Positions 13,543 through 59,100 are shown, counted from the first letter of the whole stretch. The stretch: 63,005 bases of DNA, filler included, from Chrysochromulina tobinii (GCA_001275005.1; 3 parts of 3 records of this genome joined end to end with filler, not necessarily neighbours in it); one strand, 5' to 3'. Notes: a model not told the origin generated them from the letters alone. Numbers and translations: made by a program.

Positions 13543-16500
13543 ATGAGCCTTCTGGGACCCACGGCATCGCTATTCAAGGGGCGCGGTGGGGCTCCGCCAG
13601 CACCAGTGCGTGCGCACGCCCTGAACATGAGCCCTCGAACGATCCTTGATGCAGTCTGATGCGTCTCGCTCGCACAAACGACCGCAGGCGGCAGAGAAGA
13701 AGCCGAAGCCGACAGAGAAGAAGAAGCCGTCTTTCGCGGCAGAACTCGACGACGACGACGATGACATCGAGATCAGCGCGGCTCCGAAGAAGAAGCCCGC
13801 GGGGAAAAAGGCCGAGGGCGCTGCTGATAAGAAGCCGAAGCCCGTTTCGTCCGCAGCGGCCGCGACCTCATCTTCAGCGGCTGGCAAGAAGCCAGGACAG
13901 GCGGCCCCGACCACCACGCGCCAAGCGCCCAAGCCAGGCGCTGGTGGCTCCGCAGCTGCTGGGGGCTTCAAGCCTGGCAACCCTTTGAAGAACCCGATGA
14001 ACATCAACTTTGGTGACTCGGACATCTCGATGTCAGACGTGGATGGCGACATTGAGATTGATCCGTCCGCGCAGTCTGAGGACGATTCTTCGCCGGTCGC
14101 AACGCCCATGGCCTCCACTGCAGGCGCTGGCCCGCGGTGCGGCGGTGCCTCCAGCCTGGCTGCTGCCAAGTCGCTCCTCGGTGGCAGCAGTGGAGTTAGC
14201 AGCGGAGTGGCGGCCGGTGGATCGCGGCCACCCGGTGCTACCGCCACTGCCTACAGCGCCGCCAAGCCGCCTGCGGCGGCGAGCACCGTTGGAAGCCGCC
14301 CTCTCTCGGGCGCCAAGCTCGACGACTCCTTCGAGCGCGAGCTCGAAGCTGAGCTGGGGCAAGATCCCGCGGAGTACTCGATGGGCTTTGAAAAGGAGGA
14401 GGACTCGCCCAAGCCGGCGAGCAGACCCACCGCCGCCGCGCAGCCCGTCGCCGCCAAGGCGCCCGCGCCCGCGGCGCCGGCGCCAGTAGCAGCCACAAGG
14501 GCGCCGCCGCCGCAGCCTTCGGCCGCGCCCGCCGCGGCTTACGGCTCGGGCAGGGCAGGCCTCATGTCTGCGGCTATGCTTGACTCTCCGCCGACATCGC
14601 CTCCACAGTCGAGTCAACCCCCGGCTCCGCAGGCTGCTCCCGCCCCCGCGCCCCCGCCGTCGGCGATGGCACAGCCGGGGTTCACCCCGGCAGCCTCCCT
14701 GCCCCGCGACGCGCGGCCGACCACCACGTACGTGCCTTCCGCGTTAGCGATGGCGTATGCCTCGCTACCGCCAACGCTCGAGATGGCGAGTGCTCGAGAC
14801 GGCGCTGCCGGCGGGGCGGCCAGTGCGGTCCTTTCGGGAGCAGCGAGTGCAGCGAATGCAGCGAATGCAGCGAGTGCAGCGCAGCAGCAGCAGCAGCTGG
14901 CAGCGGCGTTGGCGCGCGCCGAGCGGGCTGAGGCGTTGATGAATGCCAAGGGATCCTTGAACGAGCATGAGCTGGCCGCGAAGCTCGCGCACGTACGCCC
15001 GCCGCAGCTCCCTTCAGCTCCCTTTTCTCCTTTCAGCTCCCTTCAGCTCCCTTCAGCTCCCTTCGGCTCCCTTCAGCTCCTGCCAACTGCACCTCTCTTC
15101 CCATCCCCTTTCCCGCTGCCCCTCGCCCTATTCCCCAGCCCGCTGCCCCTCGCCTCCCGACCTCCGTGAAGGCTTCGTCATACCACTGATGACCTCTGAT
15201 GACCTCTGATGACCTCTGATGACCACTGATGACCTCTGATTGCCTCCGTGCAGGCTTCGTCATACCACGAGGTGGAGGTTGCGCGGGTGCAGGCGGAGGC
15301 GCAGCGGCAGATCGCGACGGCGCGGCTCGACGCGCAGCGCCAAGTGGTCGCGGCAGAAGCTCGCGCAGCCGCGGCGGAGGCGACCGCGGCCGAGGCGAGC
15401 GCGAGGCTCAACTTGGCCCAGACAAGGCTGACAGCGCTCGAGGCGATGCAACGGTCGAGCGCGGCGCAACACGAGGAGCGCGAGATCGTCGTCAAGCAGA
15501 CCGAGAGCTCTCGGGCCGAGGCGGCCGAGGCGCAGCTACGCGCGCTCAAGGAGGAGCTGGGCGGCCTGCAGAGAGCGCATGCATTCGAAGTGTCCTCGCT
15601 CAGGAGCGCCCACCAAGACGAGGTCGCCTCTCTCAAGCGCGCGCACGCGGCCGAGCTCACTGCGCTCGACCGCTCGGGCACGCACTCGAAGCAGATCTCG
15701 GGCCTGGCCGCACAGGTGGGCTCGGCGGTGGACGCGTTGTCGCGCCTGCAGCTGAACCAGACCAGCGCGCATTCGACTTCGCTCGAGACGCTCGCGGCTT
15801 ATCACGAGAAGCGGGCTGCAGCACTGACCGACCAAGAGGCTCGTGTGGCCGAGGCGCAGCAGCTCGTGGCACAGGAGCGCTCGAGCCTGCAGGCGCTCGC
15901 CGCGTCGCTCAAGAATTCGATGGATGAGCTCTCGAACTCCCAAGGGTCCGAGAAGGCGAGACTCGCGGCAGAGGCGCAGCGGCTCGCGGTGCAGCAGGTG
16001 GCCCTCGAGAGCCAGCGTGCGGCGCTCGCGGCGGAGGTACAGACCGAACGGCAGCGCCTGGACGAGTGGCGCGAGCAGCGCGCGCGGGAGGAGCAGCAGG
16101 CGGGCATTGAGCGCGAAGGGCGGCGCGCCGAGGTACGCGCCGAGGAGGCGGCGATGGCACGCGAGCGCGAGCGCTTTGCGCGCGAGCGCGCCGCTGCTGT
16201 CCTGGAGGCAGCGACGCGCGAGGCCCAGGCCACGTCCGAGGTGCAGAGACATGAAATGGAGCGCGAGTTGATGGCGGAGACGCGTAAGCGGCTCGCGGCC
16301 GAGCGCGCGGCGGTCGAGGCCCAGATGGCCGAGTTGGAGGAGGCAAAGGCCGCGTTTGAGAGCGACGTGGAGGCTCTCAAGGCCCTCGGGCTGCAGGTGC
16401 AAGCCGAGTCGTTCTCAGTGCGCCAGACCATGGAGCAAGCGCACGCCAAGATGGCGGAGGCCAGCCGCCTCCGCGAAGAGGCGAATGCGGCCCTGGAGGC

Positions 16501-17824: not shown

Positions 17825-17919
17825 GGCAGCCTGATCGCGCCCAGTCGAGGATCTTCAGATCGACGGGAGATGTGGCTGCGAGAGATGCTGATGTGCTTCT
17901 AGAGGCCTTGGGTAGAGAG

Positions 17920-18044
17920 ATAGATCTCCCTTGGTTGGAGATCTCATCTCCCTTGGTTGGAGATCTCATCTCCCTTGGTCGGAGATCTCATCTCCCTTGG
18001 TTGGAGATCTCATCTCCCTTGGTTGGAGATCTCATCTCCCTTGG
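17920..18044. repeat. 22-nt minisatellite (ATCTCCCTTGGTTGGAGATCTC), about 5.5 copies
   Basis: Intergenic tandem copies visible directly. Confidence 0.9.
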
Positions 18045-28054: not shown

Positions 28055-28154
28055 NNNNNNNNNNNNNNNNNNNNNNNNNNNNNNNNNNNNNNNNNNNNTT
28101 AATTAATTAANNNNNNNNNNNNNNNNNNNNNNNNNNNNNNNNNNNNNNNNNNNN
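28055..28154. other. Artificial contig spacer (N-run / TTAATTAATTAA / N-run)
   Basis: 100-nt spacer with a six-frame stop linker. Confidence 0.98.
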
Positions 28155-29122
28155 TGGGCTCGCGCGAAAAGATCGAAGGCGCCAAAGTCGACTCGCAGCC
28201 GCACAATATCCCCTTCGTCGCGCTCGGCACGGCGCTCCTTTGGTTCGGCTGGTTCGGCTTCAACGGCGGCTCGGCCCTCGCGTCGACAGGCAGCGCCGCC
28301 ATTGCCGCGGTCAACTCGGAGATCACCGCCTCGACTGCTCTCACCGTTTGGGTCGCGATCGAGTGGCTGCGTAACGGCAAGCCCTCGCTCGTCGGCCTGT
28401 GCATTGGCGCGGTCGCCGGCCTCGCCACGATCACGCCGTGTGCGGGCTTTGTGCGCCCGTGGGCAGCCTTTGTCATCGGCATCCTTGCCTCCGTCTTCTG
28501 TTACGGCTGTTGCATGCTCAAGAACCACGCAGGCTGGGACGACGCGCTCGACGTCTGGGGTGTGCATGGGATGGGCGGCGCGCTGGGTTCGGTGCTTACC
28601 GGCGTATTCGCCGACTCCACAATCAGCGGCAGCCCTGCGCGGAGTGGTCTGCTCTTCGGCAAACAGCTTGCCGCAACGTCACTCGCAGCATTGTACAGCT
28701 ACGTTGTCTCGATCGTCCTTCTCCGCCTGATTGGCTTGTTCCTGCGGCTCAAGCCCACCAAGGAAGAGATGGCTAACATCGACAAATCGTTCCATAACGA
28801 GCTTGCCTACACCGTGACCCCGGGCAACTCCTTTTACCAGGGTAACAACTTCTCCGGCACTAACACCGGGCAACTCTTTCACCTGGGCAACAACTTCTCC
28901 GGCGCCGTAATCCCGGGCAACTCCTTTTCCCAGGGCACCAACTTCTCCGCCGACTCCGACATGAGCTGGGTGGCAGACCCGGGCAAGAGATCTCCCGAGC
29001 CCACGACGATTGATTGGGTTGCAGACCCGGGCAAGAGATCTCCCGAGCCCACGACGCAGCCAAGTAAGGAGAAGGACAAGTCCGCCCGGCACGTACAGAT
29101 CGAAATCCACTCGGCGTCGTGA
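28155..29122 (+). CDS. AMT: Ammonium transporter (Amt family), 5'-truncated by the contig edge
   Basis: PHNIPFVALGTALLWFGWFGFNGGS, GAVAGLATITPCAGFV and DDALDVWGVHG. Confidence 0.95.
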
Positions 29123-30651: not shown

Positions 30652-30798
30652 AACTCTTCAACTTCTTCGCTGAAGGGTTGCGTTAAGGGGGTATAGGAGG
30701 TCACACATCGCCCTAAGCGGCGGCGGTTGCCGTTACCGTTTCACAACTTCATCCAAACCCCACGGGTTTTCGATGCGCATCGAGGGTCCTTCGTGGTC

Positions 30799-32110
30799 AT
30801 GCGCGTTGTCAGCTTTCACCACGACGGTGATTGGTCAACGCCATTGACGTTGACCGTGAGCATTACGCCGCACGCCCTCGTGCTGCTGCTGTTGGCAACC
30901 AGCGTCGCACTCAACTTGTGGCTACTTTGCAGACGACCTGTGTCGAGGCGACCTCCATCCAAGGCGCGGTTCCACGGCAGCAGCAACCAACGAATCACCA
31001 CCGCCTCCTCCTGTTCCATTACCGGCTCCCCGAAGATCTCTTCACTTATGGGCGCGGTCGAGCAGCTGCGGTGTCTCAAAGACGATCGTCGCTTTCTCGA
31101 GGCGGGCGTGCTGCTCGATGCACTGCGCGCTGAACTCTCGAAGCGAAGCGGCTCGGCCGTCTCGTTGTGGGACGCTTGGGACGCTCCGGGCGAGGCGCAG
31201 GCGGCGCTCAGTCGACTGCTCTCCGATGGGGGCGAGCTCGAAGCTCGCATCCATCAGTTCCGGCGGGCGCAGGCCGATCTCAGAAGCGAGGAGGGCGAGT
31301 GCGCGGAGAGCAGCGACTGGGAGGTGATTCGGGACGAGGCAGGCCTCTCCGTCCTGCTGCGTCGCCAGAGCGCCACCCACTCGCGCACTGCCGGCAAGGT
31401 CGTGGCGACGCTCGACGGCGTGCGCGCGGCCGACTGCATGCTCATGTGGCGAGAGGCGTCGCTGTACCCCAACTGGTTCCCCTTCGTCTCGGGCGGCAAG
31501 ATGCTGGGTGAGGTGGACCCGGGCGAGGTGTACCTGATGGCCGCTGATGGCCGCTGATGACCGCTGATTGCCCCCCTCATCAGGTGAGGTGGACCCTGGC
31601 GAGGTGTACCTTCAGCTCTTCATTGAGACGTCGTTTATCAACGTCGACATGCCTCTGCGGGGGGTGGCATGCGACGACATGGCGCGTGCCGGCGACGACG
31701 GACAGCGTTCGGGCTGCATGCTGCTCTCGTGCCGCCCGCCGCCCGACTGGCCTCACCCGCTGCCCACCGGCGTGTTACCGCCGACCAATACCAGCGAGTC
31801 TGGCGCCTTCAAGTTGCTAGGGTCATGGAGCTCCGCTACACACATCGACGTAATGATCCAACCTGTCGGTGAGGGCAGCGTGCGCATGGTCTTCCAAATG
31901 GCGGACGCCATCCCCGCCGCCACTCCATCATGGGTGCTCAAGCAGATCGTGGAGAATGCGCTCGGGTCCGTCTTTGGTCAAATGGAGAAGGTGGCCAGGC
32001 GCATGGCCGTCAACGACCCCGCGTGCGCACATACGGTGCATGTCAACTCCAAGGAAATGGTCACCACGAAGCGCTGGTATGAAAAGGCCATGCAGGATCC
32101 ACTACGCTAG
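30799..32110 (+). CDS. Membrane-anchored START-like lipid-binding domain protein, 1 intron (31508-31583)
   Basis: N-terminal TM segment, then WEVIRDEAGLSVLLR..REASLYPNWFPFV..TPSWVLKQIVENALGSVF. The intron restores the frame. Confidence 0.7.
31508..31583 (+). mobile_element. Repeat-built intron with flanking exon duplication (introner-like; cleanest example)
   Basis: 29-nt direct repeat (31507-31535 and 31583-31611, 1 mismatch) around a CTGAT-repeat insert ending CCCTCATCAG. Confidence 0.7.
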
Positions 32111-32272: not shown

Positions 32273-33923
32273 ATGCATAAAGTGACGGCCGTCCTCCTTC
32301 TTCTGTCTGCCGATCCGAGTCGCTCGGCGTTTGGTCCAGCGTTGATCTCGTCGCGCATCCTCGCCAATGCACGACGGACGTCGCCGCCGAGCATGGCTGT
32401 GACGTCGCCTCGTCGCGTCGCCGTCGTGGGCGCCGGCATCGGCGGGCTGGCGCTCGCGCGGGCTCTGGGCGAGCTCGATACGGGCGTGGAGGAGATTGTG
32501 GTCTTCGACCGCCGTGCCGAGCTCAAGCCTGGGACTGGCGGCGGCATCCAGATCAACGGCGGTGCCGCCGTGCTGGCGAGGCTGGGGCTTGGCGAGCAGG
32601 TGAAGCGCGCAGCGCTGCCTGTGCGCAGGATCCTGAGCCGAAAGAGCGGCGGCTTCGAGCTGCTGGACATTGACGTCGCATCGCTGGTGAGTGCCGAGCC
32701 CGCCCTCGTCGCAGCCGACGGCACGCCGCAGGCCTTCTCCATCATGCGAGACGCGCTTCAGCGCATGCTTGTCGATGCGCTCCCGGAGTCGGCGTCGTTG
32801 CAGCTGGGACGCCGGCTGGAGTCGATGAGCGAGGATGCCTCGGGCGTCGAGCTGGTCTTCGAGGACGGCACGGCCGAGCGGTTCGACCTCGTCGTTGGGG
32901 CGGACGGCCTCTCGTCGCGTGTGCGGCAGCACGTCGAAGCAAGCCATGCGGATGCGGACGGTCGAGCGGGAGCGTCGCCACCGACATACAGCGGCATTCG
33001 CGTGCAGTTCGGTGTCGTGCCGGGCGGCGGCTCGCGGCCACGAGGCTCTGAAGGCGAGTTCCATCAGTGGTTTGGTGAGGGGGTGTACGCGCTCACCGGC
33101 TCCTATGGCACCGGCTCGGCCGACGGCACGACCTCTGACATGCTCGCCGTCGTGTTCGCAGGTGACGAAGCATGATGACGCGTGCTTGCACCCGATGGCC
33201 TCTGATTGCATCATCGGACCTGTGATTACCACCTGACCGTCCAACACGCTCGCCGTCGCGTTTGCAGACCCGGCCGCTGCTGCTGGCACTGGCCGCCCAG
33301 GCGGCGGGCGCGCCCCTGATGAGAACTCCAACTGGGATGTGAGCGACGTGCGGGAGGAGTGCTTGCGCCGGCTCGAGCGCGCGGGGCTGCCCGAGGAGGT
33401 GCGCTCCGTCGCGCGCCGTTGTGAGCGCTGCTTCGAGCTCGGCGTGTACGAGCACGACGCCACGGCGCCATGGGTCTCGCGCGGAGGGCGCGCAGTGCTC
33501 ATAGGGGACGCGGCCCACGCGATGGCACCGTTTTTGGGCCAGGGCGCCAACCAGGCGATCCAAGACGGGTACTGCCTCGCCGCGCGCCTCGCCGCCGCCC
33601 GCGGGAGGAGCGACCGAGGTTCGTCAGCTTCGTCAGCTTCGTCAGCTTCGTCGGCTTCGTCGGCTTCGTCGGGCTCGTCGGGTTCGTCAGGGATCGTCGA
33701 CTGGCTCGCGAGGTTCGTCAGCCCGCTCCAGAGCTACGCGCTGCTACGGCGCGCGCCCGTCGTGGCGCTCCAGATCGAGTCGAGATTGCTGGGGGCGATG
33801 GAGACGGCGGGCGGCGGCGCGGGCACGCTTCCACAGCTCGTGAGAGACGCCTTCTTCCTGATCAACGGCAAGCTGGGCGTCGCGGCGCAGGTGTTCGTCA
33901 AGGGCGCGCGCCCGTGGGTCTGA
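32273..33923 (+). CDS. FAD-dependent monooxygenase (zeaxanthin epoxidase/salicylate hydroxylase-like), probably plastid-targeted, 1 intron (33162-33267)
   Basis: VAVVGAGIGGL, DLVVGADGLSSRVR and LIGDAAHAMAPFLGQGANQAIQD. Signal-like N-terminus followed by SAF. Confidence 0.88.
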
Positions 33924-39352: not shown

Positions 39353-41488
39353 TCAGCCGTCTCGTCCATTTTTGGGAGGCTCAAGCTGCCGAAACCACTC
39401 AAAAGTGGCCGAGGTGCCGCGCCGCACCTCGAGCTCGTACTGCTTCTGTCGACGGCGGCGCTCCTGATGAGCCTCGCCATCAGGGCGGCCCGAGTTGTGA
39501 ATCGCGTCCAGGAATGCAGATGCGGCGCGGCTGTGCTCGTCAAAGCGGCCCTCGACGGCGAGATACGATCCTCCGGTGGCCGCAGCGAGGGCCGCGTACC
39601 TGTGATGAGGGGTGCAATCAGAGGTCATTAGTGGCCATTAGAGATACGATCCTCCGGTGGCCGCAGCGAGGGCCGCGTACCTGTGATGAGGGGTGCAATC
39701 AGAGGTCATTAGTAGCCATTAGAGATACGATCCTCCGGTGGCCGCAGCGAGGGCCGCGTACCTGTGATGAGGGGTGCAATCAGAGGTCATTAGTAGCCAT
39801 TAGAGATACGATCCTCCGGTGGCCGCAGCGAGGGCCGCGTACCGCTCGCGCTGCGAGACCTATGTGGGGAGAGGCGCAGGTGGTGAGCGGTTGCATGCAG
39901 AGGGCCGCGTGGCGCTCGCGTGGCTCGACCTAGGGCCATCAGAGGGCCATTAGAGGGCCATTAGGGGGTACTCAGAGGGTCCTCATGGGGACATCAGAGG
40001 GCCATCAGGGGTCTGCGCACTTGGCCGAGGACGACAACGTGCCACTCGACATCATACCCAGCGGCGTGCAGGTCGTTCATCAGAGGATCCATCCCACGCA
40101 ACCCAGCGTACTGTGCAGGCGAGAGGGTATCGTGTCCGTCGGTGATGACGATGCAATCAAGTCGCACTCAAGTCGCATTCAAGTCGCAATCAGTACTTGT
40201 GCAGGCGAGAGGGTATCGTGTCCGTCGGTGATGACGATGAGACGGAGCTTGCCGCCCGCTGGCCGGTAGCGGCCAAGCACGTCCTGCTGAATCATGTGCC
40301 ATAGGTACGTGCCACCTGATGAGCCATCCCATCCGAGCGAGATGAGTTCCGTCATCATCGGAGGTGACTCCTCTCTCGGAGCGAGAACCTGATGAGGGAT
40401 GCAATCAGAGGCCATTAGAGCGCCATCGGGTGCGCCTCGAAGAGAAATTTACCGATGAGGGATGCAATCAGAGGCCATTAGAGCGCCATCGGATGCGCCT
40501 CGAAGAGAAATTTACCGATGAGGGATGCAATCAGAGGTCATTAGAGCGCCATCGGGTGCGCCTCGAAGAGAAATGTACCGTAGGCGCGGCGCCAAACTTG
40601 AGTACGGTATGCAATCAGATGCAATCAGAGGTCATGCAATCAGAGGTCATTAGAGCAATGTACCGTAGGCGTGGCGCCAAATTTGAGTACGCGCGTAGGG
40701 CCGCGCAGCAACGGTCCCATCGTAGAGAGCACGCGCTTGCCTTCGTCGAGCAGCGTGCTGCCCCAGCTGCCGCCCCATCCACTGCCACCGCCGTCGCCGT
40801 CGCCGCCGCTGCCGCTGCCGCTGCCGCTGCCGCTGCCGCTGCTGCTGATGCTGATGCTGCCGCGCATGGAGCCGGAGTCGTCGAGGTAGAGGACCGTCTC
40901 GATGCCGCACACGTCCACCGGCGACGCCACCGCATCGAGCACCGATGGTACCGACTGGAGCAAATGGCCGGCGAGCATGAAGCCCGGGTGGCGAGCCTTG
41001 GCGAGAGCGCTGCCGGCGACCGGCGCGACGGTCTTGGCGACGCCCCACGCTGCGCGTGCAAACGCTCCGACCACGCTCGCACCGCCGCCGCTCGGCAGTT
41101 GGGCGGGAGGCATGGCGTCGTCGGATGGCGAGGTGAGGACGATGGCCGAGGCGTCGCGCTGGGCATTCCACAGCTCCTCAGTGTAGCCGAGGCCGTGCTG
41201 CGCGGCACCCCGCTGCGAGGCCGTCAGCTCATCCCAATTCTGCAATGTCGACATCGGCGCGTGGCGCGAGCCATCCCAGCTCTCGGCCGACCAGCCGAGC
41301 GCTGACCAAGCTGCGCGCTCGTCGGTTGGCAGAGCGCCCCAGGATGTGCGCCGGCTGACTTCGAGGTGTGGATGACGTACGAGGCTGGAGAGCGTTTGGC
41401 GGTGGGCGTATAAATAATTGTGACGAGGAAGGCGATGCCCGAGCCGTGGGCGTGCGAGAAGGCCGAGGCGTGCGAGCAAAGCGGCCAT
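39353..41488 (-). CDS. von Willebrand factor A (VWA) domain protein, 5 exons
   Basis: Exons 41488-40664, 40388-40197, 40110-40021, 39859-39843 and 39599-39353 join in frame. They give the MIDAS motifs LYLDDSGSM..GGTYL..LIVITDG..HVVVLG..YAALAAATGGSY. Confidence 0.85.
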
Positions 41489-42889: not shown

Positions 42890-43268
42890 TCACCCATGTG
42901 TGGGAGAATCGGCATGAGCCCGCGTGTGGGAACATGGGGGCAGAGCCACAGAGGGCAGCCAACTTGCTGATTCGCCGTTCGAGTTTGCGCGCATGGTGCT
43001 TGCACGGAGCAGCGTTGGCGGCCTTGAAGCGGCCTTATGGCGTTTGAAGGAGTTGCAGTTGCGATGTGGGCTCGCGGCTGGAGGCCTGGCATAAGGCCAC
43101 TCTGAAACCTGTCTCTTTTACGACGAATTCGATCTGTTCCAAAAACTGTTGACGTCCCCGCCCTTAATTTGTTTGTTCCGAGTTGCGTCGGTGTCAGCGG
43201 TGCGAGTTAGTGTGCCGCAATTCACATGAACAATCTCCCCCGCGTGTGACAATCGTGAGACGCGCTTC

Positions 43269-44265: not shown

Positions 44266-44372
44266 AACGCGTAGCGCGCCTATTTACGTTGTGGGGGACT
44301 TAGTGGACGAGAACCGCCCAACGACACCGTTAAGAATATAAGATATATTAAGACACCAATCTTCCAAACCTG

Positions 44373-47290
44373 TTAAGTACTAGGGGGCGTTGCGGGCTTC
44401 GGCTTGCCTGACTTGGGTTTGCTCGGCGGCGGCGCACCCTTCGGCTTCGCCGGCCGTTGGCTGACCTTGCGACGTGCGCCGCCGCTGCGGCTGTTGCGGC
44501 CGTTGCGGCCGTTACTTGAGCCTCGGCCCGCCTGCGCGTCAGCCGTGTTCGTCAGCGCCCGCCACCACCCCCACCAACGGCCGCTCTCCTCCCCTGAGCT
44601 TGGTGCCCCGCGCCTGCCACCGGTGGGCTGCTTCGGCCGCTTGGGTTTGCCTAATTTGGGTTTGCTCGGCGGCGGCGCACCCTTCGGCGTCAACGGCCGT
44701 AGGCTGACCTTGCGACGTGCGCCGCCGCCGCGGCTGTTGCGGCCATTGCGGCCGTTACTTGAGCCTCGGCTCGCTTTCGCAGCCTGCGCGTCAGCCGTGT
44801 TCGTCAGCGCCCGCGCCTGCGCGAGCCGGGTCGTTCCACCAGAGGCCATCAGAGGTCATCAGAGGTCATCAGAGGCCATCATAGGTCATCAGAGGCAATC
44901 AGAGGTCATCAGGGGCCATAAGGCAGCACCTGAGCGAGCCGGAGCGTTTGCACCAAAAGAAGGACGAGGGCCACAGGAGGCGCGAGCTCAATCGAGATGC
45001 GCCCGAGCTCATTCGAGATGCGCCCCAAGCTTGCGCCAAAGCCCTGCAGCGGCGCGCCGAGTTGGGCGGCGGCCTCGGCTCCCCCGGCGGCCATCACGTC
45101 CGAGAGCAACACCCTATTATGGTAATATGGACGGAGAAAAGACCGGAGGAGGTCAGAAGGCACTCAGAAGGCACTCAGAAGGCACTCAGAAGGCACTCAA
45201 TATGCAATGAACACCTTGAGAACGCGAAGACGAAGAGAAGGCCAGCGAGGGCGTCGGCGATCTCCTTCGCGCCAGAAGGCAGCGGGCGACGCAGCAGCCC
45301 CTCAGCGCCCAGCAGCAGCATCTGCCATCCGTCGAGGCCGGGTACCGGTAGGCTGGGCACCAAACAGCGAGGGAGAGAGAGGGTGAGAAGCGACCCGACC
45401 CAAACTCGAGTTTAGTCAGTGTGGTCGATGAGAAAGGAGGGCAATCAGCATGCACTCCGAGAGCACTCCGAGAGCAATCAGCCGCAATCAGAGCGCAATC
45501 AGCATGCACTCCGAGAGCACTCCGAGAGCAATCAGCCGCAATCAGAGCGCAATCAGCATGCACTCCGAGAGCACTCCGCACCTATTGACCACAGCGAGGT
45601 TGAGGGAGAGGATGGCGCCGAATTCGAGTAAGTTGAGGACGTCGAGCGTCGCGAGGTCTGCGCCTGATGAGGGAGGCCCTCGGATGCAATCAGCATGCAC
45701 TCCGTATGCAATTCGAGGCAATCAGCATGCACTCCGAGGCGCACGCACCCATCCGAGCGATGCCCAACGGACCCTTAATGAGGGAGGCAATCAGCATGCA
45801 ATCAGAGCGCAATCAGCACGCAATCAGAGCGCAATCAGCACGCACCCATCCGAGCGATGCCCAACGGACCCTGCAGCTGCGCCGGCGGAGATGCAGATCT
45901 CGCGCCGGGAGATCTCGTGCCGGGGCGCATACCGCTCAGAAGGCTCTCGAAGGCGGAGCTCAGCCCAGATAGAATCTCGCGCGCATCTCGCCAGACGGCG
46001 CGCGCCGCCCTGCTGCACCGCAGGTAGCGGCGCGAGTGGTACGCGACGCACGGAGATGCCGTTACGCGACGACAACTCGACTCCAAGCGTCCTCTGTGGG
46101 GAAGCAGAGGGTGGCAGCCTCACTGTCATCAGCGGCAATCAGAGGTCATCAAGCAGCACCTGAGCGAGGCCGAGGGTTGGCACCCTCAATGTCATCTCCC
46201 GTCCGTCTCGCTCGATGAGGGTGTCAAAGGGGGCGCGAGCGCCCACTGCGGCGCGAATGGCTTCGACCGACGCCTCAATTGACGAAATCGGGGCCACCTC
46301 GAGTGACGAAACCGGAGCCGCTTCGAGTGACGAAATCGGAGCCGCCGCTGCCGCCGCCGTGCCGCCGCGAGCGCTCACGGGAGAGCCTGCCGTACCGGTA
46401 CGTGTGCGCGCTGTCGTGGGCGGCGCTGTCGTGATCGGCGCTGTCGTGGGCGGCAAGGCGCCTGCCGTACCGGTACCCGCCACCGTACCCGCCATAGCGC
46501 GCCTGACGGTGGGCGCTGCGGGACTGTGCGCTGGGATGGGCACCGCGGGAGCGCTGTTTCGGGCACCGAGGGGCATGCCGGGCCGTTGGAGCTTCACATT
46601 CACATTCACAGACCCGATGCTCAGAAGACGATCGCCTGGATGGAATCCGGCAGCCTCGGCTGCGGAGGAGGGGAGCACGCGGCTCACCACGACCGGCTGC
46701 TCGACGGGTAGGGGCACCCCGAGTGTCCCGGCCGCGGCCACGAGCAGTGTGAACGAGAGGATGACGTTCGCAACCACGCCTGCGCCGACGACGAGAGCTC
46801 GCTCGCGCAGCGGTCGGTTCTCTAGCAGATCGGGCCCGTCCTCGACCTGTAGCGCCGGATCGAGTGGCTCGCCCGGCTCGAGCAGCTTGCGCTCCTCGAG
46901 CTGCGTGCGGTTCAGCAGCCGCGGGAAGCTCACGTAGCCGCCAATGGGCAGCGCGCGCAGGGTGTACGAGATGCCGTTGGCCGCGGTCTTCTTGAGCAGC
47001 GGCGGGCCGAAGCCGATGGAGAACTCGGACACGCGGATGCCCTGCCAGCGTGCGGCCGCAAAGTGCCCTAGCTCGTGGATCACCACGACGGCCGTCAGCG
47101 TGGCCAGCCCGGCGATGGGCGCGAACTGAGCGGGCAGGCCGATGGCGAGTGGAGGGCGGCTGCGCCGCGGCAGCCGCGAGGGTGGGCGGTGGTGCGGCAG
47201 CGGCGGCTGGAGCGATTGTCTCAACAACGGCTGAAGTGGAGAGTGAAAGGAAAGAACGGCGATGAGGACTGCGGAACTGGCTGCCGACAT
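44373..47290 (-). CDS. M50 intramembrane zinc metalloprotease with PDZ (RseP/ARASP-like, probably plastid-targeted), 5 introns, apparent frameshift at 46008-46010
   Basis: IHELGHF, FSIGFGP, LRALPIGGYV, GPLGIARMG and LSLNLAVVN|SLPVPGLDG. Introns lie at 46159-46094, 45845-45664, about 45582-45353, about 45215-45114 and 44929-44817. Confidence 0.9.
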
Positions 47291-47476
47291 GATCGTGAAT
47301 GGGTGGTTACGCATCTGAAACTTGATCAGGTAAATTATCTGATCGTGGAAGAAGCCATGTGCTAGAAATCGCAGCGAGAGCAGGTTTTGATCGCCGCTGA
47401 CGTGTCGACGAGTGGGGATTCTCTTGCCCAGAATGGAGACCATCTTTTCCTCTCTCCTCCCCTCTCTGAGAGCAGT

Positions 47477-49876
47477 ATGTGCAGGCGGAGCTCAAGACGA
47501 CCTCGAGACCCTTCGCCGGTCGCTCGTACCGGAGTCGTCTTGAGCAAGACGCCCTCGATGGGGACGCACGTTCTGGTAGGTCGCACACAGAGCACGGTGA
47601 ACCCCGCCGACCCCAAGGTGCTTCAGGACGGCGAGCAGTTTGGCAGCCCATCTGGCTCCCCTCCATCGGTGAGGGTGCGCGTGTGCGTGCTGAATATCTA
47701 CGAGGTCAACGCGCAAGAACGTACGTGGCAAGGCAAGATTCATCTGGAAGCGTCCTGGCACGACCCGACACTGTGGCGTGACAAGCGAGAGCACGAGGAG
47801 TGGCCGGACCCGGACGCGGATCTCTGGCCGCAGCAGTGCCCGTTTGTTGCGGGCCAAAATAAGCGCTGGACGCCGCGGCTGGAGATTGAGAACTGTCGTC
47901 GGGATTTTTCACGAGAGACGTGGTTTAAGGTTTACTACAAGGGCAAGCAAGTCGACGAGGAGGGTCGCGAGAGGATCATTCATCTCGACTGGCCGGTGGT
48001 CGAATACAATCTGGTGATCCGCGGCATGTTCACGTTCGAGTTCCAGCCCCACAGATTCCCCTTTGATGTGCAAGAGCTGCCCGTGAGGGTCCGTAGCAAT
48101 CGAAGTATCCCCTCGAAAGACGCATCGAGCACGAGCGAGTCGGTCCGGCACTTTGCTCACATTTGCCTCGACGAGCGCAAAGGTCATCCTTCCAAGGTTC
48201 TGAGCCACTGATGGCACTGCTGGCCATTGATGGGCATTTCCCCTTGTTTGCCTCCTTCATGCCCTCTCTCTCTCTCTCTCTCTCTTGAAGCACGGCAACC
48301 TGCTCGCGGGCGCATGGGATCGAATGGCACCTTATGTCGCCTGATTGCACTCCCTCATTAGGTACTGAAGCACGGCAACCTGCTCGCGGACGAATGGGAT
48401 CTCGACGGTACACTTTGGCTGAGTGAGGGGAGGACGTTGCAGCGCTCGCACTTCGAGTACCCAGTCGTTGAGTTCAAGGTGAACTCGAAGGCAACGAATT
48501 GCCGCTAGTGCAACGGATTGCCATTGACGAATTGCCGCTAGTGCAACGGATTGCCATTGACGAATTGCCGCCAGTGCAACGGATGGCCATTGACGAATTG
48601 CCGCTAGTGCAACGGATTGCCATTGACGAATTGCCGCTAGTGCAACGAATTGTCGCGAGTGCAACGGATTGCCGCTGAGCAGGCGTCCAGTTTGATTGCC
48701 GCTGATAGTAACGCCTCCCTCCTCAGGTTCGGCTCCACTGAAGATGATTGGCACTGATGAGCTTCTGATGAGCCTCTGATGACGTCTGATGGCCTCCCTC
48801 CTCAGGTTCGGCTCCACCGGCGCGCCGGCTTCTACGTGTACTCAATCTGGCTGCCCAACTTTCTGCTCGTGACGCTCGCCTTCCTTGTGCTCAAGCTCGA
48901 GCCTGAGGAAGTTCAAGATTACGACCGTGAGATGATCGATCATCCTAACTTCCGCTTTGATCGTCAACCGCTCGTCAATGAGCGCGTGACGCTCGTCACC
49001 ACGCTGCTCCTCGCGTCGGCCGGTTACCGTGCCAACATCGATCTCCCGCGCACCCCGACGTTCTCCTGGCTCGAAGCCTACCTGCTCGTGTGCATCGGCG
49101 CACTCTTCTTGCTAGCCCTCTTCTCCTATGGTCCGCTGATGACCTCTGATGACCTCTGATGGCCTCTGATGGCCTCTGATGACCTCTGATGACTTCTTAC
49201 GAGTACAACCTGTGATGACCTCTGATGAGCAGAAATCTTCGGCAAAGCCAAGCTCGAAACCGACAACATCCTGAAAATTTCGGCGCCCTTCCTCGTCGTT
49301 CTGGGTATCTGGGGCATCTGCAGAGATCAGCTTGTGTACCAATGCAGACTCTCCTTTGCCGGCACGAATACTCTCTTATTTACGTGCGTCTTCTGGCTGA
49401 TCGCTATCATCGGTCTTGCGCTCTGGCACCAAACAACCGACACCATCCTGAGCATGGCGGGGCCCTTTCTCGTCGTCCAGGGTATCTGGTGCATCTGCCG
49501 GGCTCAGCTTGTGTCGAAAAGGTTTACTGCGATCTTCTGGTCGATCGCTCTCTTCGGTCTTTGGGCCTGGCACCGTCAGTCCGATTTCTTGGTCTCGACG
49601 GTGCGGAAGAGTATCGACAGCCCGGCCGAATTCTGCTTCTTTCTTTGGATCGTGCTCAACATCGTCTTCTTCCTCCTCTACTGCGAGCGCTGCAGCTGGC
49701 TGCAGCCGCAGCCTCACAGCACACCCGAGGATGGGTGTTTCCTCGAGCCGCCGAGGCCGATCACGTCAGCCCTCGAGATCGCAAACGGGCCGATGGTAGC
49801 CGGGGCGCTCGCACTGTCGCCAGCCCCGCAAGCACGAGCGGCGACCTCGCCAGCGCGCGGGGGGGTCAGCCGGTGA
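47477..49876 (+). CDS. Cys-less pentameric ligand-gated ion channel subunit with extra C-terminal TM helices, 3 introns
   Basis: HLEASWHDP, WTPRLEIEN, HRFPFDVQEL, LHRRAGFYVYSIWLP, ERVTLVTTLLL and LPRTPTFSWLEAY. Introns 48197-48361, 48479-48805 and 49131-49232 restore the frame. Confidence 0.85.
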
Positions 49877-53119: not shown

Positions 53120-56100
53120 TCAGCTGATCTGCCCGAGCGCGCCCAGGAGCACGCGCGTGAACTCGCCGTAGCTCACGCGCTCATGCGTGAGCCGGCCGAG
53201 GGAGGCAAGCAGCGCGTTCACCTCCGCGTCGCTCCGATGCAAGCCGAGGCTCAGGAGTACCAGCTCGATCTCGGCACTCGAGATCGAGTCGGTCGAACTA
53301 TCCGCGAAGAGCTCAAAGGCGGCGCGCGCCTCGCCCGAGAGATTCGCCGAGATATTGCCCGGGATCAGAGCCCCCGTTCCGGCGAGGTTCGTCACTGCGG
53401 CGTGCGCGGTCGCGGGGACGCCATCAGTGCTGGCGAGGACGCCATCGGTGCTGGCGAGGACGCCATCAGTGCTGGCGAGGACGCCATCGGTGCTGGCGAG
53501 GACGCCATCGGTGCTGGCGAGGACGCCATCGGTGCTGGCGAGGACGCCATCAGTGCTGGCGAGGACGCCATCAGTGCTGGCGAGGACGCCATCGGTGCTG
53601 GCGAGGACGCCATCGGTGCTGGCGAGGACGCCATCAGTGCTGGCGAGGACGCCATCAGTGCTGGCGAGGACGCCATCGGTGCTGGCGAGGACGGCACAGA
53701 GGCGGCTGAGTGTCTCCGAGCTCACGATGACCTCCGCCAAGGGCTCTGCTTCGGAACTTGAGGCGCCGCCGATTGTACCAGCAGCGGGGAAACCACCAGT
53801 GGGGAAACCACCAGTGGGGAAACCACCAGTGGGGAAACCACCAGTGGGGAAACCACCAGTGGGGAAACCACCAGTGGGGAAACCACCAGTGGGATAGCCG
53901 TCTGTGGGGAAACCGTTTGGAGGGCGAGCAGCGAGGCCGAGGGCGGCCAGCAGGGGCTTCAGCTGGCTAATGGGGGGGCTCATTAGGCCGAGAGTGGCCT
54001 GGATGACGTGTGGAACGTCCGCCACTGGGACACCGGCGCAGCTGAAGCCGCCACCGAAGCCCCTGTTCACACCGAAGCCCCTGTTCACACCGAAGCCCCT
54101 GTTCACACCGAAGCCCCTGGCGCCGCTGCCGCCATTGGACACCAGATTCGCCAGAGCGACGGCTGCGTAAGCCTTGGCTTGAGCGTCGCCGTCGCGAGCC
54201 AGCGCCGCGAGCGCCTCGATGCCACCCGCCGCCGCGATGGCCTCCAGGTGAGTAGACTTGCCGTGTGAAAGGTACGCGAGCGCCGCGGCTGCGTACGCCC
54301 TCCCTTGCGCGTCGCCCTCGCCAGACAGCGCCGTGGTGAGCGTCTCTATGCCGCCTGCCGCCACAATCGCCGGATGGTGGGCCTGCGCGCACGCCAGGCT
54401 CGCCAGCGCGCCGGCCGCGTTGACCCTCCCTTGAGCATCGCCATTTCGAGCGAGCACCACCAGCGTCTCGATGCCGCCTGCCGCCGCGATCGCCTCCCGA
54501 AAGGCATCATCGGTCGCCAGGTTGATCAACGCTCCAGCGGCGTACGCTTGCCCTTGGGGCTCACCGTGGCGAGCCAGCGCTACCAGCGCCTCAATCCCGC
54601 CCGCCGCTGCAATCGCCGTCCGGTTCGCCTCGTCGAGCGCGAGGTTCGTCAAAGCCCCACCGCTGTTCGAGGCGCCCTGCGCGTTGGCGCCGTCGCACGC
54701 GAGCGTGACGAGCGCCTCGATGGCGCCTGCCGCCACGATGACCTGACGGTTCGCCTGCACGCACGCCAGGCTGCCCAGCGCGCCAGCCGCGTTGGATTTG
54801 CCTTCCGCGTCGCCGTCACGAGCGAGCTCGACGAGCGCCTCGATGCCGCCCGCCGCACCGATCGCTTCCCGAAGGGCATCCTCCTGTGCCAAGTTGAGCA
54901 GCGCCCCAGCGGCATTCGTCTTGCAGAGGGTGTCGCCTTCCAAATTGGGGAGATCCGGTTGCCTAATTAGGAGCGCCACGAGTGCCTCGATGCCGCCCGC
55001 CGACGCGATCGCGGAGCGACCCTCACCTGATGAAGGAGGCAATCAGCACGCACTCAGAGAGGCACGCAGCATGCAATCAGGCCGCCGCAATTGCGGAGCG
55101 ACCCTCACCATCGAGGGCCTGATGAAAGAGGCAATCAGCATGCAATCGCGGGAGCGACCCTCACCATCGAGGGCCTGATGAAAGAGGCAATCAGCATGCA
55201 CTCGCGGGAGCGACCCTCACCATCAAGGGCCTGATGAAAGAGGCAATCAGCATGCAATCGCGGGAGCGACCCTCACCATCGAGGGCCAGAGTCGCCAATG
55301 CGTGCGCCGCCCTCGCCTGACCCTCCACGTCGCCCCCTCGAGTGAGCGCGACGAGGCCAGAGGCCACCGCAGAGGCCGTGCCGGCGTCGAGGCCGTCGGC
55401 GGAGGCCAGGGCTGAGGGGGAGAGCGCTCGGGACGGCGCTGAGGTGGGGAGCGACGGCCATTCAAAGCGCCGTCCCGAGCGCTGGCCTCTGGCAGAGGTG
55501 GAGGTGGAGGTGGAGAGCGACCTCTGCCAGCCCTGCCGCGCCAGATTAGGATTGTCAGACAGAGTTTCCATATTAGGATTGTCAGAATTAGTTGCCAGAT
55601 TAGGATCGGTAAGCCTTCGCCTCGATCGAACCAACAACATGCTTGTCATCGCCTCAAGCTCTTCGCTGGCGCGTTGGGCGCCGTCAGGACTAGCTCTGCC
55701 GTCACCTCCGGCGCCATCGGAAGGAGAGCTCGCCTCAAAGGCGCGCATGGCGAGCTCCAATCGAGCCACAGCCGCGGGCGGAAGCGGACGCGCACACGCG
55801 AGCGCCGTGCGCGCCGTAATGAGCGCATCGATCTCCGAGTCGGCATGCGGGGGCGGTGGCAGCGGCGGCGCGGCGCACAGCTGCAAGAAGTGCGAAAAGG
55901 AGAGCAGCGCGGCGGGAGGAGCGGTTGCGGCGGCGCTAGCGCTGCTGCCGACAACCACGGCGGCGGTCTCTAAGGGGCTCGCGTCGTGATGGGCGGTCTC
56001 AAAGGGGCCCGCGTCGTGATGGGCGGTCTCAAAGGGGCCCGCGTCGTGATGGGCGGTCTCAAAGGGGCTCGCGTCGTGATGGGCGAGGGCCGCCGCATGC

Positions 56101-59100
56101 CGCTGCGCGTGGGCGAGCACGCGGCTCCACTCTGCATGCGGCAGGTGACGAATCTCTAAAGCTCCGAAGACGAGATCGAGCTCCGAAGGCCGCACGTACC
56201 CCTCGCGCGCGCCGTCGTGGGCGCCGTCGAAGAGGGCGAACGCGGTGTGCAGCGCCGCGAGCGGCGCCGTGCCGAGCGGCGCACACAGCGTTTCGGCGAG
56301 GACCGCGAGGGGCGCGCCGTCGTGGCGCTTCGTCACTCGCTTCGTCACTCGCGTCGTCGTGGCGGCAAGGCCGAGGAAGTCAGGCGAAGGCACGGGCGCT
56401 GTGGTGGCGCTCGGGGCGGCGCTCGGGGCGGCGCTCGAGGCGGCGCTCGGGGCGGCGCTCGGAGCGGCGCTGTGAATGGAGGGGGCAAGCACGTCCGCCG
56501 CCTCGGCTGCCGCGGCGGACATCTCATCCCATAGCAGCGCCGTCCCGAGCGCCATCTCATCCCATCGCGGCGCACCCTTGCCTGCGTCTGCGCCTGTGCC
56601 TGTGCCTGTGCCTGTGCCTTTGCCGCCTCCTTCGCCGCCGCCAGAGGCCACCTCGGCGCCCAACTCGGCGCCCAACTCGGCGCCCACCTCGGCGCCCACC
56701 TCGGCGCCCATCCCTGCGCCCACCTCGGCGCCCATCCCGGCGCCCAGCGTCTCGGCGCGCTTGGCTGCAGCGTACGGGCGCACCATGTGATAGAGGAGGA
56801 GCCCGACCAAATTAGGAAAGGGCACGCACTCGTACGCGCGCAGCGCCGTCTCGAGCGCCGCGCGGCTCGCCGCCGTCAGGTAGCCCGCCCCGAAGGCGCC
56901 TAGGAAGAGCTCGAGCGCCGTCGTGGGCATCACGCCCCCGCCGCGGAGCTCGCCAGTGACGACATCGAGGCTGTACAAAGGGGGGGGCGCGTGCGGCGCC
57001 GTCCCGAGCGCCACAACCGGCGCGTGCAGCGCCTGCGCGGAGGCGGCGCCGAAGAGGGCGAAGGCATCGTGGATGAGGGCGACGAGGGTGAGGAGAGCGG
57101 GTGGCGGCGGAGCAGGCAGCAAGAGGATCACCGCCTCAAGAGGCAGCGCTGGTCTGCTCGGGTGGAGCGGGGGAACGCCGGCGTCGGTGGCGACGGGCGG
57201 CGGGAGGCGCGATGCCGTCGAGATCGCAATCTGGGCCAATGAGGTGCCGAGCTCGCGATCTCGACGCGAGCTCGCAATCTGGGCCAATGGGATGCGATGG
57301 ATCGCGAGAGCGACGCCGGCGCTCCCCCCGCCCGGTGACGTGGACGGCACTCGAAACGGACGGAGATTGAGCGAGATCGTGCAGCTCCGACGCTCCTTTG
57401 ACGACACTGGCGGTTCGCCCATCTCGGCGCGCGCGCGCGCGCGCGCCGTGCTGAGCAGCGCGCGCTGCGCCGCCGCCTCCTCTTGCGCCTTGGCCGCGAG
57501 GTACCTGATGAGGGAGGCAATCGGACTGATGAGGGAGGCAATCGGAGGGGTCTGTCGAGGGACTGCTCAGAGGGCAATCTCGCTGATCTCGCTGAGTAGA
57601 GGGTTCATCAAGGGTTCATCAAGAGGTCATCAATTGCTCATCAAGGAGTCATCAATGGGTCATCAATGAGTCAGTAAGGGGCCATCAAGGCGTCAATAAG
57701 GGGTCATCAACGGGGCATCAAGGGTGCATAAAGGGTGCATCAGACGTACTTTGCATTCTCGCGCCGGAGCGAGTCTTCGCGCGCGAGGAGCTCTCGCAGC
57801 CACACCTGATGAGGCCAGCAATCAGTCGCAATCAGCATGCACTCAGTCGCAATCAGCATGCAATCGCGCGCGAGGAGCTCTCGCAGCCACACCTGATGAG
57901 GCAAGCAATCAGTCGCAATCAGCATGCACTCAGTCGCACTCAGCATGCAATCGCGCGCGAGGAGCTCTCGCAGCCACACCTCGCGGCGGAAGTGTTCGTG
58001 ACGGCCTGATGAGGCTCGCAATCAGTCGCAATCAGTCGCAATCAGCCACACCTCGCGCCGGAAGTGTTCGTGACGGACCACCTCGGCCTCGTGCTCGGCA
58101 CGGCGCGCCGCCGCCTTCGCCTCCTCCTCCGCATCGCGCAAGGCGGCTGGTTGGACGGCTTGGTCGGCGCTCGGGGCGGCGCTGTGAATGGAGGGGGCGA
58201 GCACGGCTGGTTGGAGGGCTTGGTCGGCGTCCTGTGCCGCCCACGCGCGCGCGCAGGCGTAACGTGCCATCGAGGCCGCGCGTCGCTCCTGATGAGGGAC
58301 GCAATCACGCGGATGAGAAACGCAATCACGCTGATGAGGATCGCAATCACGCGGATGAGGAACGCAATCAAGCTGATGAGGAACGCAATCAGTGCATGCA
58401 ATTCGACGCACCTCTTCTTGTCGTTCCCGCTCGGCACGCGCCGTGGCGGCGGCCTCCTCCACCTGATGAGGCAAGCAATCAGTCGCAATCAGCATGCAAT
58501 CAGCATGCACTCCGCATGCACTCCGCATGCAATCAGCGCTCATCCACCTGCCGGCGCATCTCGCGACTCGACGCCTGATGAGGCCAGCAGTCATTCGCAA
58601 TCAGTCGCAATCAGTCGCAATCAGCGCTCATCACCTGCCGGCGCATCTCGCGACTCGACGCCTCTGCCGCAGCCGCCGCCTCGTGCCGCGCGCTGTCTTG
58701 GGCGGGCGAGGCGGCCGTTACGCTTCGTTGGGTTTCGAGGACGAGCACGCTGGCGCCGTCGCGGGCGGCCGGTCTCGTACCGCCCACGACGGCGCCTGCG
58801 CCCGCGAAGGAGGTGGCCGCTTCGTCCACGTATGACGAGGCCGGTGGCGGTGGCGCCCGCGACGGCGCGGGCTCGTGGTGCACCAGCAGCTGTGCAAAGG
58901 GGACCATCGCTGCGAGCGCCGCCTCGGTCGCCTCCTTGGCGAGCGCGTGCCCGAGACGGCGCTCGAGCGCCGCGGCACGCTCGACGGTGGCGACGGGTAG
59001 TTGGGCGGAGTCGACGGGTAGCGAGACGAAGCCACGCCGCTGGCCGCCCGTGGGGGAAAGGGGGGAGAAAGGGGGAGGAGGCGGGGGAAGCGGGGGAGGC

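What the first reader, a model, noticed from the sequence alone, without database searches (positions are those of the whole stretch)
14993..58634. Candidate intron-generating system: CTGAT-repeat inserts plus variable-length exon duplications that splice out cleanly
Seen: at least 15 introns in 7 unrelated genes (FBF1-like, START, FAD monooxygenase, VWA, RseP, ion channel, ARM) consist of short degenerate repeats such as TGATGACCTC, CTGATTGC and GAGTGCATG. All are in the sense orientation of the host gene, and many end in TGATTGCn(1-4)CCTCATCAG. Most carry a direct copy (about 4-45 nt) of adjacent exon sequence, and GT-AG removal restores the reading frame. Established: some algal introner transposons co-opt one splice site from their target-site duplication, but they have fixed short TSDs, terminal inverted repeats and near-constant length. 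Inference: the variable duplication length, variable repeat number and lack of TIRs point to another mechanism. One option is templated repeat synthesis (telomerase/RT-like, or polymerase template switching) at a staggered break, with CTGAT acting as a multimerised branch point. I cannot tell whether this has already been described for the organism.
Basis: partly seen in the sequence, partly recalled or inferred. Interest (0 to 1): 0.9.

Follow-up and report, generated by a model that had tools for sequence, protein, structure and literature searches.

The report
Alga mass-produces introns from splice-signal repeats
In the freshwater alga Chrysochromulina tobinii, many introns consist of a short copy of the gene's own neighbouring sequence plus a run of splice-signal-like repeats, and they likely arose recently when broken genes were patched with pieces copied from existing introns, a route to new introns that published transposon-based surveys scored as absent in this species.

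Summary
Real. The window's middle contig is Chrysochromulina tobinii. I define 20 GT-AG introns in 7 genes, all sense; 15 of 20 carry a 12-42-nt copy of adjacent exon. One junction is shown spliced in three RNA runs and absent from DNA. Orthologs read uninterrupted across the RseP, FAD and channel sites, and a sister lineage has an extra intron of this type that the window lacks. In 129 metagenome loci the architecture recurs: target X (11-55 nt), insert, X again, with 1-7-nt microhomology at both joints. Inserts are pieces of a few intron families: 10-11-nt CTGAT units with a branch-point/acceptor tail, a second fixed tail, a donor-bearing master copy, and in one gene telomere repeats. Neighbouring introns of one gene share tails far above chance. 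No element body or true TIR was found. Best reading: templated repair of staggered breaks copying existing intron sequence, likely from RNA; the enzyme is unidentified. Introners have fixed 0-8-nt duplications, and a 2025 survey lists zero families for this genome. This scan already noted the same footprint once in this genome (e1-2577349), and telomere-repeat versions in other microbes.

The parts
14993..15253 (+). FBF1-like intron: older pyrimidine-rich body, extended at its 3' end by six CTGAT units between two copies of a 26-nt stretch (acceptor plus first 15 exon bases)
   Evidence: Pfam FBF1 on the next exon; no RNA test
31508..31583 (+). 76-nt intron in the START-like gene, simplest class A case: 28-nt exon copy gives the GT donor, 48-nt insert gives branch-like units and AG; second copy 31584-31611 is exon, one mismatch between copies
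   Evidence: START label not confirmed by Pfam
33162..33267 (+). 106-nt intron in the FAD monooxygenase, class B: insert carries GT, acceptor AG comes from a 20-nt copy (33248-33267) of the exon end (33142-33161)
   Evidence: NCBI model P0123 splices here and 21 relatives read through; one DNA contig spans it with no difference
39600..39842 (-). VWA-like intron 4: three tandem 81-nt units, each a 40-nt exon copy starting GT plus a repeat tail ending AG
   Evidence: copy number not verified by long reads
39860..40020 (-). VWA-like intron 3: repeat array, then a decayed exon copy and a copy of the second tail family
40111..40196 (-). VWA-like intron 2: 42-nt duplication; donor and acceptor overlap in the target, and one extra A in the first copy keeps the frame
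40389..40663 (-). VWA-like intron 1: duplication of exon end plus donor, then three 63-nt units
44817..44929 (-). RseP intron (last): repeat array plus decayed copy of the exon end
   Evidence: NCBI model P0172 splices here
45114..45214 (-). RseP intron with CTGAGTGCCTT-type repeats, no exon copy
   Evidence: P0172 splices here; orthologs read through
45353..45581 (-). RseP intron with GAGTGCATG/CTGATTGC array, no exon copy
   Evidence: orthologs support this acceptor, P0172 uses another
45664..45845 (-). RseP intron with a perfect 35-nt duplication of exon end plus donor
   Evidence: P0172 splices here
46094..46159 (-). RseP first intron, 66 nt, decayed class B; shared with close relatives
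48197..48361 (+). Channel intron 1, holds a 36-nt copy (48286-48321) of the next exon; spliced
   Evidence: joint 48194-48360, GT..AG, 165 nt, in 3 of 3 RNA runs and 0 of 1 DNA run
48479..48805 (+). Channel intron 2: 33-nt array, duplicated acceptor plus 12 exon bases
   Evidence: orthologs P0167, P0168 read across
49131..49232 (+). Channel intron 3: CTGATGACCT array, no exon copy
55027..55276 (-). ARM gene intron 5: three 56-nt units plus a further class A insertion
   Evidence: no RNA or ortholog test
57505..57749 (-). ARM gene intron 4: decayed array ending in the standard tail, only a 4-nt GTAC repeat
57806..58051 (-). ARM gene intron 3: nested 34-nt and 29-nt duplications with three tails
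58289..58411 (-). ARM gene intron 2: five 21-nt tail-like units, no exon copy
58463..58634 (-). ARM gene intron 1: perfect 32-nt duplication of exon end plus donor, two tails

Best explanation
These are spliceosomal introns made of a duplicated 11-55-nt stretch of the host gene around a piece of sequence matching other introns, and they likely arise when a staggered break in a transcribed gene is patched by microhomology-primed copying of an existing intron, likely from its RNA. Steps: (1) inferred: nicks 11-55 nt apart leave overhangs whose fill-in duplicates the target X; (2) shown as sequence: both joints carry 1-7-nt microhomology and the filler is a fragment of one of a few intron families; (3) shown as sequence: in class A the filler ends at an AG and X starts GT or GC, in class B an AG|GT inside X or a donor carried by the filler is used, so splicing removes filler plus one X exactly; (4) inferred: events without such a solution are purged from exons; (5) inferred: later slippage multiplies 10-11-nt units and whole X-plus-tail units, and every new intron becomes a further template, which homogenises the genome's introns. 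The RNA template is inferred from the gene-restricted, sense-only placement; the copying enzyme is not identified.
For: Copy of the post-AG sequence upstream at 54% of 247 anchors against 10.5% of 400 random AGs. 64 primary events: X 11-55 nt, starts GT in 47 and GC in 5, G at -1 in 50, 27 perfect copies, 72 mismatches in 1606 nt. Unbiased scan, 136 events: exact GT/GC-AG removal in 39 of 45 class A (11.6 expected) and 46 of 86 class B (20.4 expected); microhomology of 2 nt or more at 55% of 40 scorable class B 3' joints and 50% of 34 scorable 5' joints against 7-8% null. Sense coding downstream 63 against 2 among 148 anchors, control 46 against 42 of 300. Tail sharing of 15 nt or more: 27% of 51 same-strand pairs under 300 nt, 8% of 104 at 0.3-1.5 kb, 0 of 57 beyond 5 kb, 3% of 75 opposite-strand, 2% of 27,540 unlinked; best match local for 29 of 140, 1.8 expected. 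Second tail: 94 copies, 50 with a duplication, 37 of those exactly removable. Donor-bearing master copy, 10 hits in 8 loci. Gain: 16 of 42 close RseP relatives carry one extra insert that the window and outgroups lack. In-cis RNA-templated repair is described in yeast (PMC11390984, passages).
Against: No enzyme or whole genome was available. 111 of 140 anchors have no strictly best local match, some close pairs are partial tandem copies, and candidate templates lie both upstream and downstream. 40 of 86 class B events have no exact removal; by eye many duplicate an existing donor, but I did not count them. Both flanks gave the same coding frame in only 16 of 31 scorable events. The gene-restriction test is noisy: 231 sense, 31 antisense, 37 mixed, 33 non-coding, 10 edge of 342 clusters (random 561/570/212/243/12); 9 of the 64 antisense or non-coding calls are window clusters that are sense in my models. 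Exact AG and GT ends can come from selection alone. Only one junction has direct RNA support; 195 joints of that table were not shown.
Confidence: 0.45

Rival explanations
1. A family of very short non-autonomous retroposons (SINE-like introners) is inserted by target-primed reverse transcription of a LINE-type enzyme, which gives variable duplications, exact 3' ends and 5' truncation.
For: Variable X, exact AG end and variable 5' joint in class A; a near-fixed 57-nt donor-bearing copy in unlinked loci; fixed second tail. About 5% of classified introners are non-LTR derived (PMC12130899, passages). TPRT hallmarks are from my own knowledge.
Against: No shared body upstream of the tails: 12 locus pairs among 287 masked upstream regions share sequence, 7 of them the second tail and the rest low-complexity or short. 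Class B inserts end inside a unit. Distance-dependent, same-strand sharing and near absence of antisense or intergenic copies are not expected of a free retroposon. At least three unrelated fillers use one architecture.
Confidence: 0.22
2. DNA-only template switching (polymerase-theta-type end joining or fork slippage) copies nearby or ectopic intron DNA into staggered breaks; selection alone yields the sense bias and exact splice ends.
For: Microhomology at both joints; local sharing; frequent plain tandem duplication of tail plus exon start; the precedent in Daphnia of staggered-break introns with repeated later events (PMC4202315, passages).
Against: Neutral intergenic and inverted inserts should outnumber the few exonic survivors; none of the 23 window clusters is intergenic, and only 3 of 136 events hold units in both orientations.
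Confidence: 0.22
3. Telomerase or a paralogous telomerase RNA with a 10-11-nt template adds the repeats de novo at breaks.
For: Two inserts in one gene have CCCTAA arrays followed by the standard 10-nt end, between copies of X, with the G-rich strand on the template strand (L070). FAD relatives read into LTLTLT/PNPNP runs that fit sense CCCTAA arrays. Telomerase-linked inserts with microhomology are described in mammals (PMC2246262, section 14).
Against: One locus of 129; 384 unit types with locus-specific variants; a non-repetitive family uses the same architecture. No telomerase RNA was examined.
Confidence: 0.07
4. Old introns were later filled by satellites and the duplications are assembly artefacts or chance.
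For: FBF1, VWA1 and RseP3 are insertions into existing introns; near-identical tandem units are hard to assemble.
Against: Uninterrupted orthologs on 10-42-kb contigs; a lineage-specific insert; mismatches between copies; DNA contigs spanning the FAD, RseP1 and channel-1 introns without other letters.
Confidence: 0.03

Closest known systems
Introners (Gozashti et al. 2022, 10.1101/2022.06.06.494994 and PMC9860276; Roy et al. 2020, 10.1101/2020.10.14.339549; Gozashti et al. 2025, PMC12130899)
   Same: Many similar young introns in unrelated genes; one or both splice sites co-opted from the duplicated target; several frames of co-option (Polarella classes 4/5, 12, 14). A marine Chrysochromulina MAG has a no-TIR family that carries the donor and co-opts the acceptor; one 5-copy Emiliania family is annotated with 10-bp terminal direct repeats.
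   Different: Duplications in the passages read are fixed per class at 3-8 nt; here 11-55 nt and continuous, half the intron can be exon copy, length and sequence vary, and tails resemble neighbours. C. tobinii is listed with 0 families; the 2022 method removed low-complexity families and required similarity up to both intron ends.
Intron gain by staggered double-strand-break repair in Daphnia pulex (PMC4202315, passages)
   Same: New introns with a direct repeat of the adjacent exon and repeated later events inside young introns.
   Different: Repeats there are 4-12 bp, about 90 introns, filler mostly of unknown source; here longer duplications, identifiable intron-derived filler, and a rough estimate of thousands of introns.
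Tandem genomic duplication of AGGT, and intron transposition by reverse splicing or RT template switching (review PMC3443670, passages)
   Same: Class B takes donor and acceptor from two copies of one AG|GT; the filler is copied from other introns.
   Different: Plain duplication has no foreign filler; intron transposition as described moves whole introns and no long target duplication is mentioned in the passages read.
Interstitial telomeric insertions at breaks in mammals (PMC2246262, abstract and section 14)
   Same: Telomere repeats inserted at a break with microhomology, sometimes with RNA-derived sequence.
   Different: Not intron-forming; here only one locus shows telomere repeats.

Membership tests
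Introner (broad: repeated intron-generating insertion) | Similar introns at unrelated positions in non-paralogous genes | tested here: met
   258 unique tail anchors in 129 loci plus window; 109 locus groups
Introner (broad: repeated intron-generating insertion) | Recent gain shown by empty orthologous sites | tested here: met
   protein level only: 16 of 42 close relatives with an extra insert; uninterrupted outgroups
Introner (broad: repeated intron-generating insertion) | Similarity extends to both intron ends | tested here: not met
   one end is locus-specific exon copy in both classes; insert 28-254 nt; the donor-bearing master is fixed over about 57 nt only
Introner (broad: repeated intron-generating insertion) | Spliced from mRNA | tested here: inconclusive
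   1 of the 14 introns inside the laid stretch appears in the cut joint table; others rest on orthologs and annotation
MITE/DNA-transposon introner | Fixed short target-site duplication | tested here: not met
   11-55 nt, continuous; lower bound set by my cut-off
MITE/DNA-transposon introner | Terminal inverted repeats | tested here: not met
   only the 5-8-nt unit/end complementarity; inserts often end inside a unit; no folding excess
SINE/LINE retroposon | Variable duplication, exact 3' end, 5' truncation | tested here: inconclusive
   met in class A (45 events), not in class B (91 events)
SINE/LINE retroposon | Shared element body or partner RT element | tested here: inconclusive
   no shared upstream body in 287 regions; no genome to search; no Rfam match in the window
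Break-repair intron gain (Daphnia type) | Direct repeat of adjacent exon with filler and microhomology | tested here: met
Telomerase-healed insertion | Filler is the telomere repeat in register with the break | tested here: not met
   true for L070 only among 129 loci; the C. tobinii telomere repeat itself was not determined
RNA-templated repair | Dependence on transcript and reverse-transcriptase activity | not testable with these tools
   needs a reporter experiment

The most novel reading that the evidence does not exclude
Spliceosomal introns in this alga propagate themselves without a transposase: intron RNA serves as the patch for breaks in transcribed genes, copied by a host reverse transcriptase (possibly telomerase, which left its own repeats at one locus), and this loop has built a large share of the genome's introns and is shared, with different fillers, across haptophytes.
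Probability: 0.3. Interest if true: 0.93.

Novelty: new variant of a known kind. Interest (0 to 1): 0.78.

Why it matters
Mass intron gain is currently attributed to introner transposons (PMC12130899, passages). Here a cultured alga scored as having none shows a rough 290 repeat clusters per Mb (69 in 240,591 nt away from the search seeds; about 17,000 if scaled to 59 Mb, against about one intron per gene for 16,777 genes in PMC4580454), with each event recording its target, joints and filler. That makes the long-open question of where new intron sequence comes from directly testable, offers natural zero-length-exon arrays for studying recursive splicing, and warns that introner screens that drop low-complexity introns miss a whole mode of gain.

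Tried and rejected
No whole genome was held, so nothing is a genome-wide count. RNA junction evidence covers 30700-49400 only, and its table showed 15 of 210 joints; the ARM and FBF1 introns have no RNA test. Two RNA contig pieces stop at the START and FAD introns, a weak hint not used. Summed DNA depth in repeat bins (over 70,000 against about 120-140) shows many look-alike contigs but is no copy number. Viral contigs: 0 matches for three patterns. Prokaryote genomes: 5 matches of a 19-mer, about 4 expected by chance. Rfam: 0. Folding: no signal in 6 introns. Strain-pair alignment of overlapping loci gave no presence/absence case, only an 80-nt unit-number difference; long pairs were skipped. 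A suspected extra RseP intron near 45870-45930 was rejected: the frame runs through once base 46008 is dropped. The negative link between X and insert length (rho -0.47, n 43) is inflated by my 130-nt cap and was not relied on. Direction of copying between neighbours could not be set. The classifier merged its one-side and both-side classes and mis-stranded 5 clusters. Literature: ten full-text searches listed no description of this system; the C. tobin genome paper has one mention of introns (PMC4580454, passages); two Phaeocystis papers showed nothing on it (PMC11347835, PMC12480563, passages); a review had no haptophyte mention (PMC11282704, passages). I recall that the Emiliania genome paper reports 10-11-bp tandem repeats enriched in introns; it is not held, so the repeats themselves may be partly anticipated there. 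Unseen material that may bear on novelty: the cut part of the 2022 supplement, files 13-14 of the 2025 supplement, parts 3-4 and supplements of the dinoflagellate preprint, all figures, and subscription papers on C. parva.


Full report
Identity. The window is three contigs joined by N-flanked linkers. The FAD exon is 100% identical to an NCBI protein of Chrysochromulina tobinii on a 30,975-nt contig, the length of the segment between the linkers, and RseP clusters with KOO33796 of the same species. The first contig (FBF1) was not identified separately. No whole genome was held.

Observation. The window has 23 repeat clusters against 0-1 in 30 simulations. I placed 20 GT-AG introns in 7 genes; six models are open after removal, and RseP is open once base 46008, absent from contigs of all four laid runs, is dropped. 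15 of 20 introns carry a 12-42-nt exon copy. The predicted 165-nt channel intron matches a GT..AG joint present in three RNA runs of three studies and absent from the DNA run; only 15 of 210 joints were displayed. NCBI models splice the FAD intron and four of five RseP introns at the same junctions; these are annotations, not per-junction proof. Channel orthologs read across all three sites.

Age. RseP orthologs at 50-63% identity, some on contigs of 10-42 kb, are uninterrupted across all five sites; 21 of 46 FAD hits read through the FAD site, one on a 17-kb contig, one other is interrupted at about the same place. That long-contig ORFs are intronless genes is my inference, and no tree was built. 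Among 42 close RseP relatives covering the site near 46680, 16 carry one extra frame-shifting insert whose translation fits CTGAT units plus the second tail and a short exon copy; 26, the window and outgroups lack it. Duplicated copies differ at 72 of 1606 nt and 27 of 64 are perfect.

Anatomy in a larger sample. A pattern scan of metagenomes returned 136 stretches, stored as 129 loci and 796,603 nt, from cultures and other metagenomes; these loci were chosen for the tail and are not a random sample. Of 258 unique tail anchors, 247 could be scored; 54% have an upstream copy of the sequence that begins right after the AG, against 10.5% of 400 random AGs. After dropping tandem and nested cases, 64 primary events remain: X is 11-55 nt, starts GT in 47 and GC in 5, is preceded by G in 50, and the insert is 28-254 nt. 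A scan that did not use the tail found 406 direct repeats, 136 with CTGAT filler: 45 class A (filler ends at the tail AG; 39 exactly removable, 11.6 expected) and 91 class B (filler ends inside a unit; of 86 not nested, 46 removable, 20.4 expected, 40 not). Microhomology of 2 nt or more to the repeat register occurs at about half of the scorable joints against 7-8% (fewer than half of joints were scorable). Units are mostly 10 nt (1477) or 11 nt (420) of 2184, in 384 types, redundant loci included.

Placement. Confidently coding sequence downstream of a tail is sense in 63 cases and antisense in 2 among 148 anchors; control 46 and 42 of 300. A cluster-level test gave 231 sense and 31 antisense of 342, with a noisy classifier. 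All 23 window clusters lie in the seven genes. Because only about a quarter of random targets allow exact removal and half would be inverted, untargeted insertion should leave several neutral intergenic inserts per surviving exonic one; that excess is not seen. This is the main argument for coupling to transcription, and it needs a genome-wide count.

Source of the filler. Tails of same-strand neighbours share 15 nt or more upstream of the core in 27% of 51 pairs under 300 nt, falling to background beyond about 1.5-5 kb and absent across strands; 29 of 140 anchors have their best match locally, 1.8 expected, so 111 do not. A second, non-repetitive tail has 94 copies, 50 with a duplication. A near-fixed 57-nt copy that begins at its own GT, holds CTGAT units and the second core, and borrows the acceptor from X occurs 10 times in 8 loci, tying the families together. 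In L070 two inserts consist of CCCTAA arrays plus the standard end between copies of X; CCCTAA is the telomere motif reported for Phaeocystis globosa. No shared element body was found upstream of 287 tails.

Mechanism. Shown: duplication, filler identity, microhomology, splice-site co-option, orientation, local sharing. Inferred: staggered break, templated fill-in, purge of unspliceable events, later slippage, feedback from new introns. I favour an intron or pre-mRNA template (0.45) over a LINE-mobilised short retroposon (0.22), DNA template switching with selection (0.22) and telomerase-type synthesis (0.07). That these are young insertion-derived introns I put near 0.85.

Comparison. Introners co-opt splice sites the same way but with class-fixed 3-8-nt duplications in the text read (parts 1-2 of 4 of 10.1101/2020.10.14.339549; passages of 10.1101/2022.06.06.494994). 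C. tobinii was screened in 2022 and appears only in the input table of the stored supplement, and is listed with 0 families in 2025. Daphnia break-repair introns have 4-12-bp repeats. The system works like an introner but fails end-to-end similarity, fixed duplication and TIR tests, so I do not file it as one. Ten searches listed no description (see Tried and rejected); the Emiliania genome paper, recalled to mention intronic 10-11-bp repeats, could not be read.

Earlier notes of this scan. One note on another piece of this genome reports a 66-nt intron with a 15-nt duplication and over a hundred relatives, and two report telomere-repeat introns with duplications in marine microbes. They are unchecked AI notes and not independent evidence; the first led me to the dinoflagellate paper.

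Verdict. Real, apparently undescribed in the papers I could search, a new variant of intron-generating insertion with an open mechanism. Interest 0.78.

Noticed in passing
window 28055-28155 and 59131-59230: N-flanked linkers join three contigs; the middle one is 30,975 nt.
   Followed up: yes
window 46008: One extra base relative to contigs of all four laid runs; it breaks the RseP frame and is likely an assembly error.
   Followed up: yes
window 37508-37570, minus strand: Second-family core between two copies of a 16-nt stretch near the end of a phosphatase-like gene, with no exact splice solution.
   Followed up: partly
window 6731-6900 and 7061-7316: Two introns of a MYB-like gene are pyrimidine-rich and lack the repeats: a contrast set of ordinary introns (read by eye).
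   Followed up: no
window 17924-18044, 4441-4500, 57260-57300: Another repeat vocabulary built on GAGATC; 8 direct-repeat events with such filler occur in the loci.
   Followed up: partly
window 53418-53690, minus strand: In-frame 21-nt coding repeat in the ARM gene that contains CTGATGG, resembling the intron unit.
   Followed up: no
window 59340-59900: Degenerate non-coding satellite built on CATCGTCTCACAAA at a contig start.
   Followed up: no
L070:5455-5689: Two introns-like inserts of CCCTAA arrays with the standard tail and target duplication in one gene.
   Followed up: partly
proteins P0131, P0144, P0149-P0151, P0153, P0155 and P0010: Unspliced ORFs of relatives run into LTLTLT/PNPNP or PSDSF runs, suggesting repeat-built introns with other units in related lineages.
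   Followed up: no
window 44376-44855, minus strand: The RseP C-terminal tail holds an in-frame internal duplication; P0004 and P0006 carry a further in-frame duplication in exon 1.
   Followed up: no
window 37800-38150: Many shared substitutions in RNA and DNA contigs at about half DNA depth, suggesting a second allele or paralog of the phosphatase-like gene.
   Followed up: no
L103, L023:1485, L080: Differences between the two copies at positions +1 to +4 sometimes give the intronic copy a better-looking donor, hinting at tuning after insertion; not tested.
   Followed up: no
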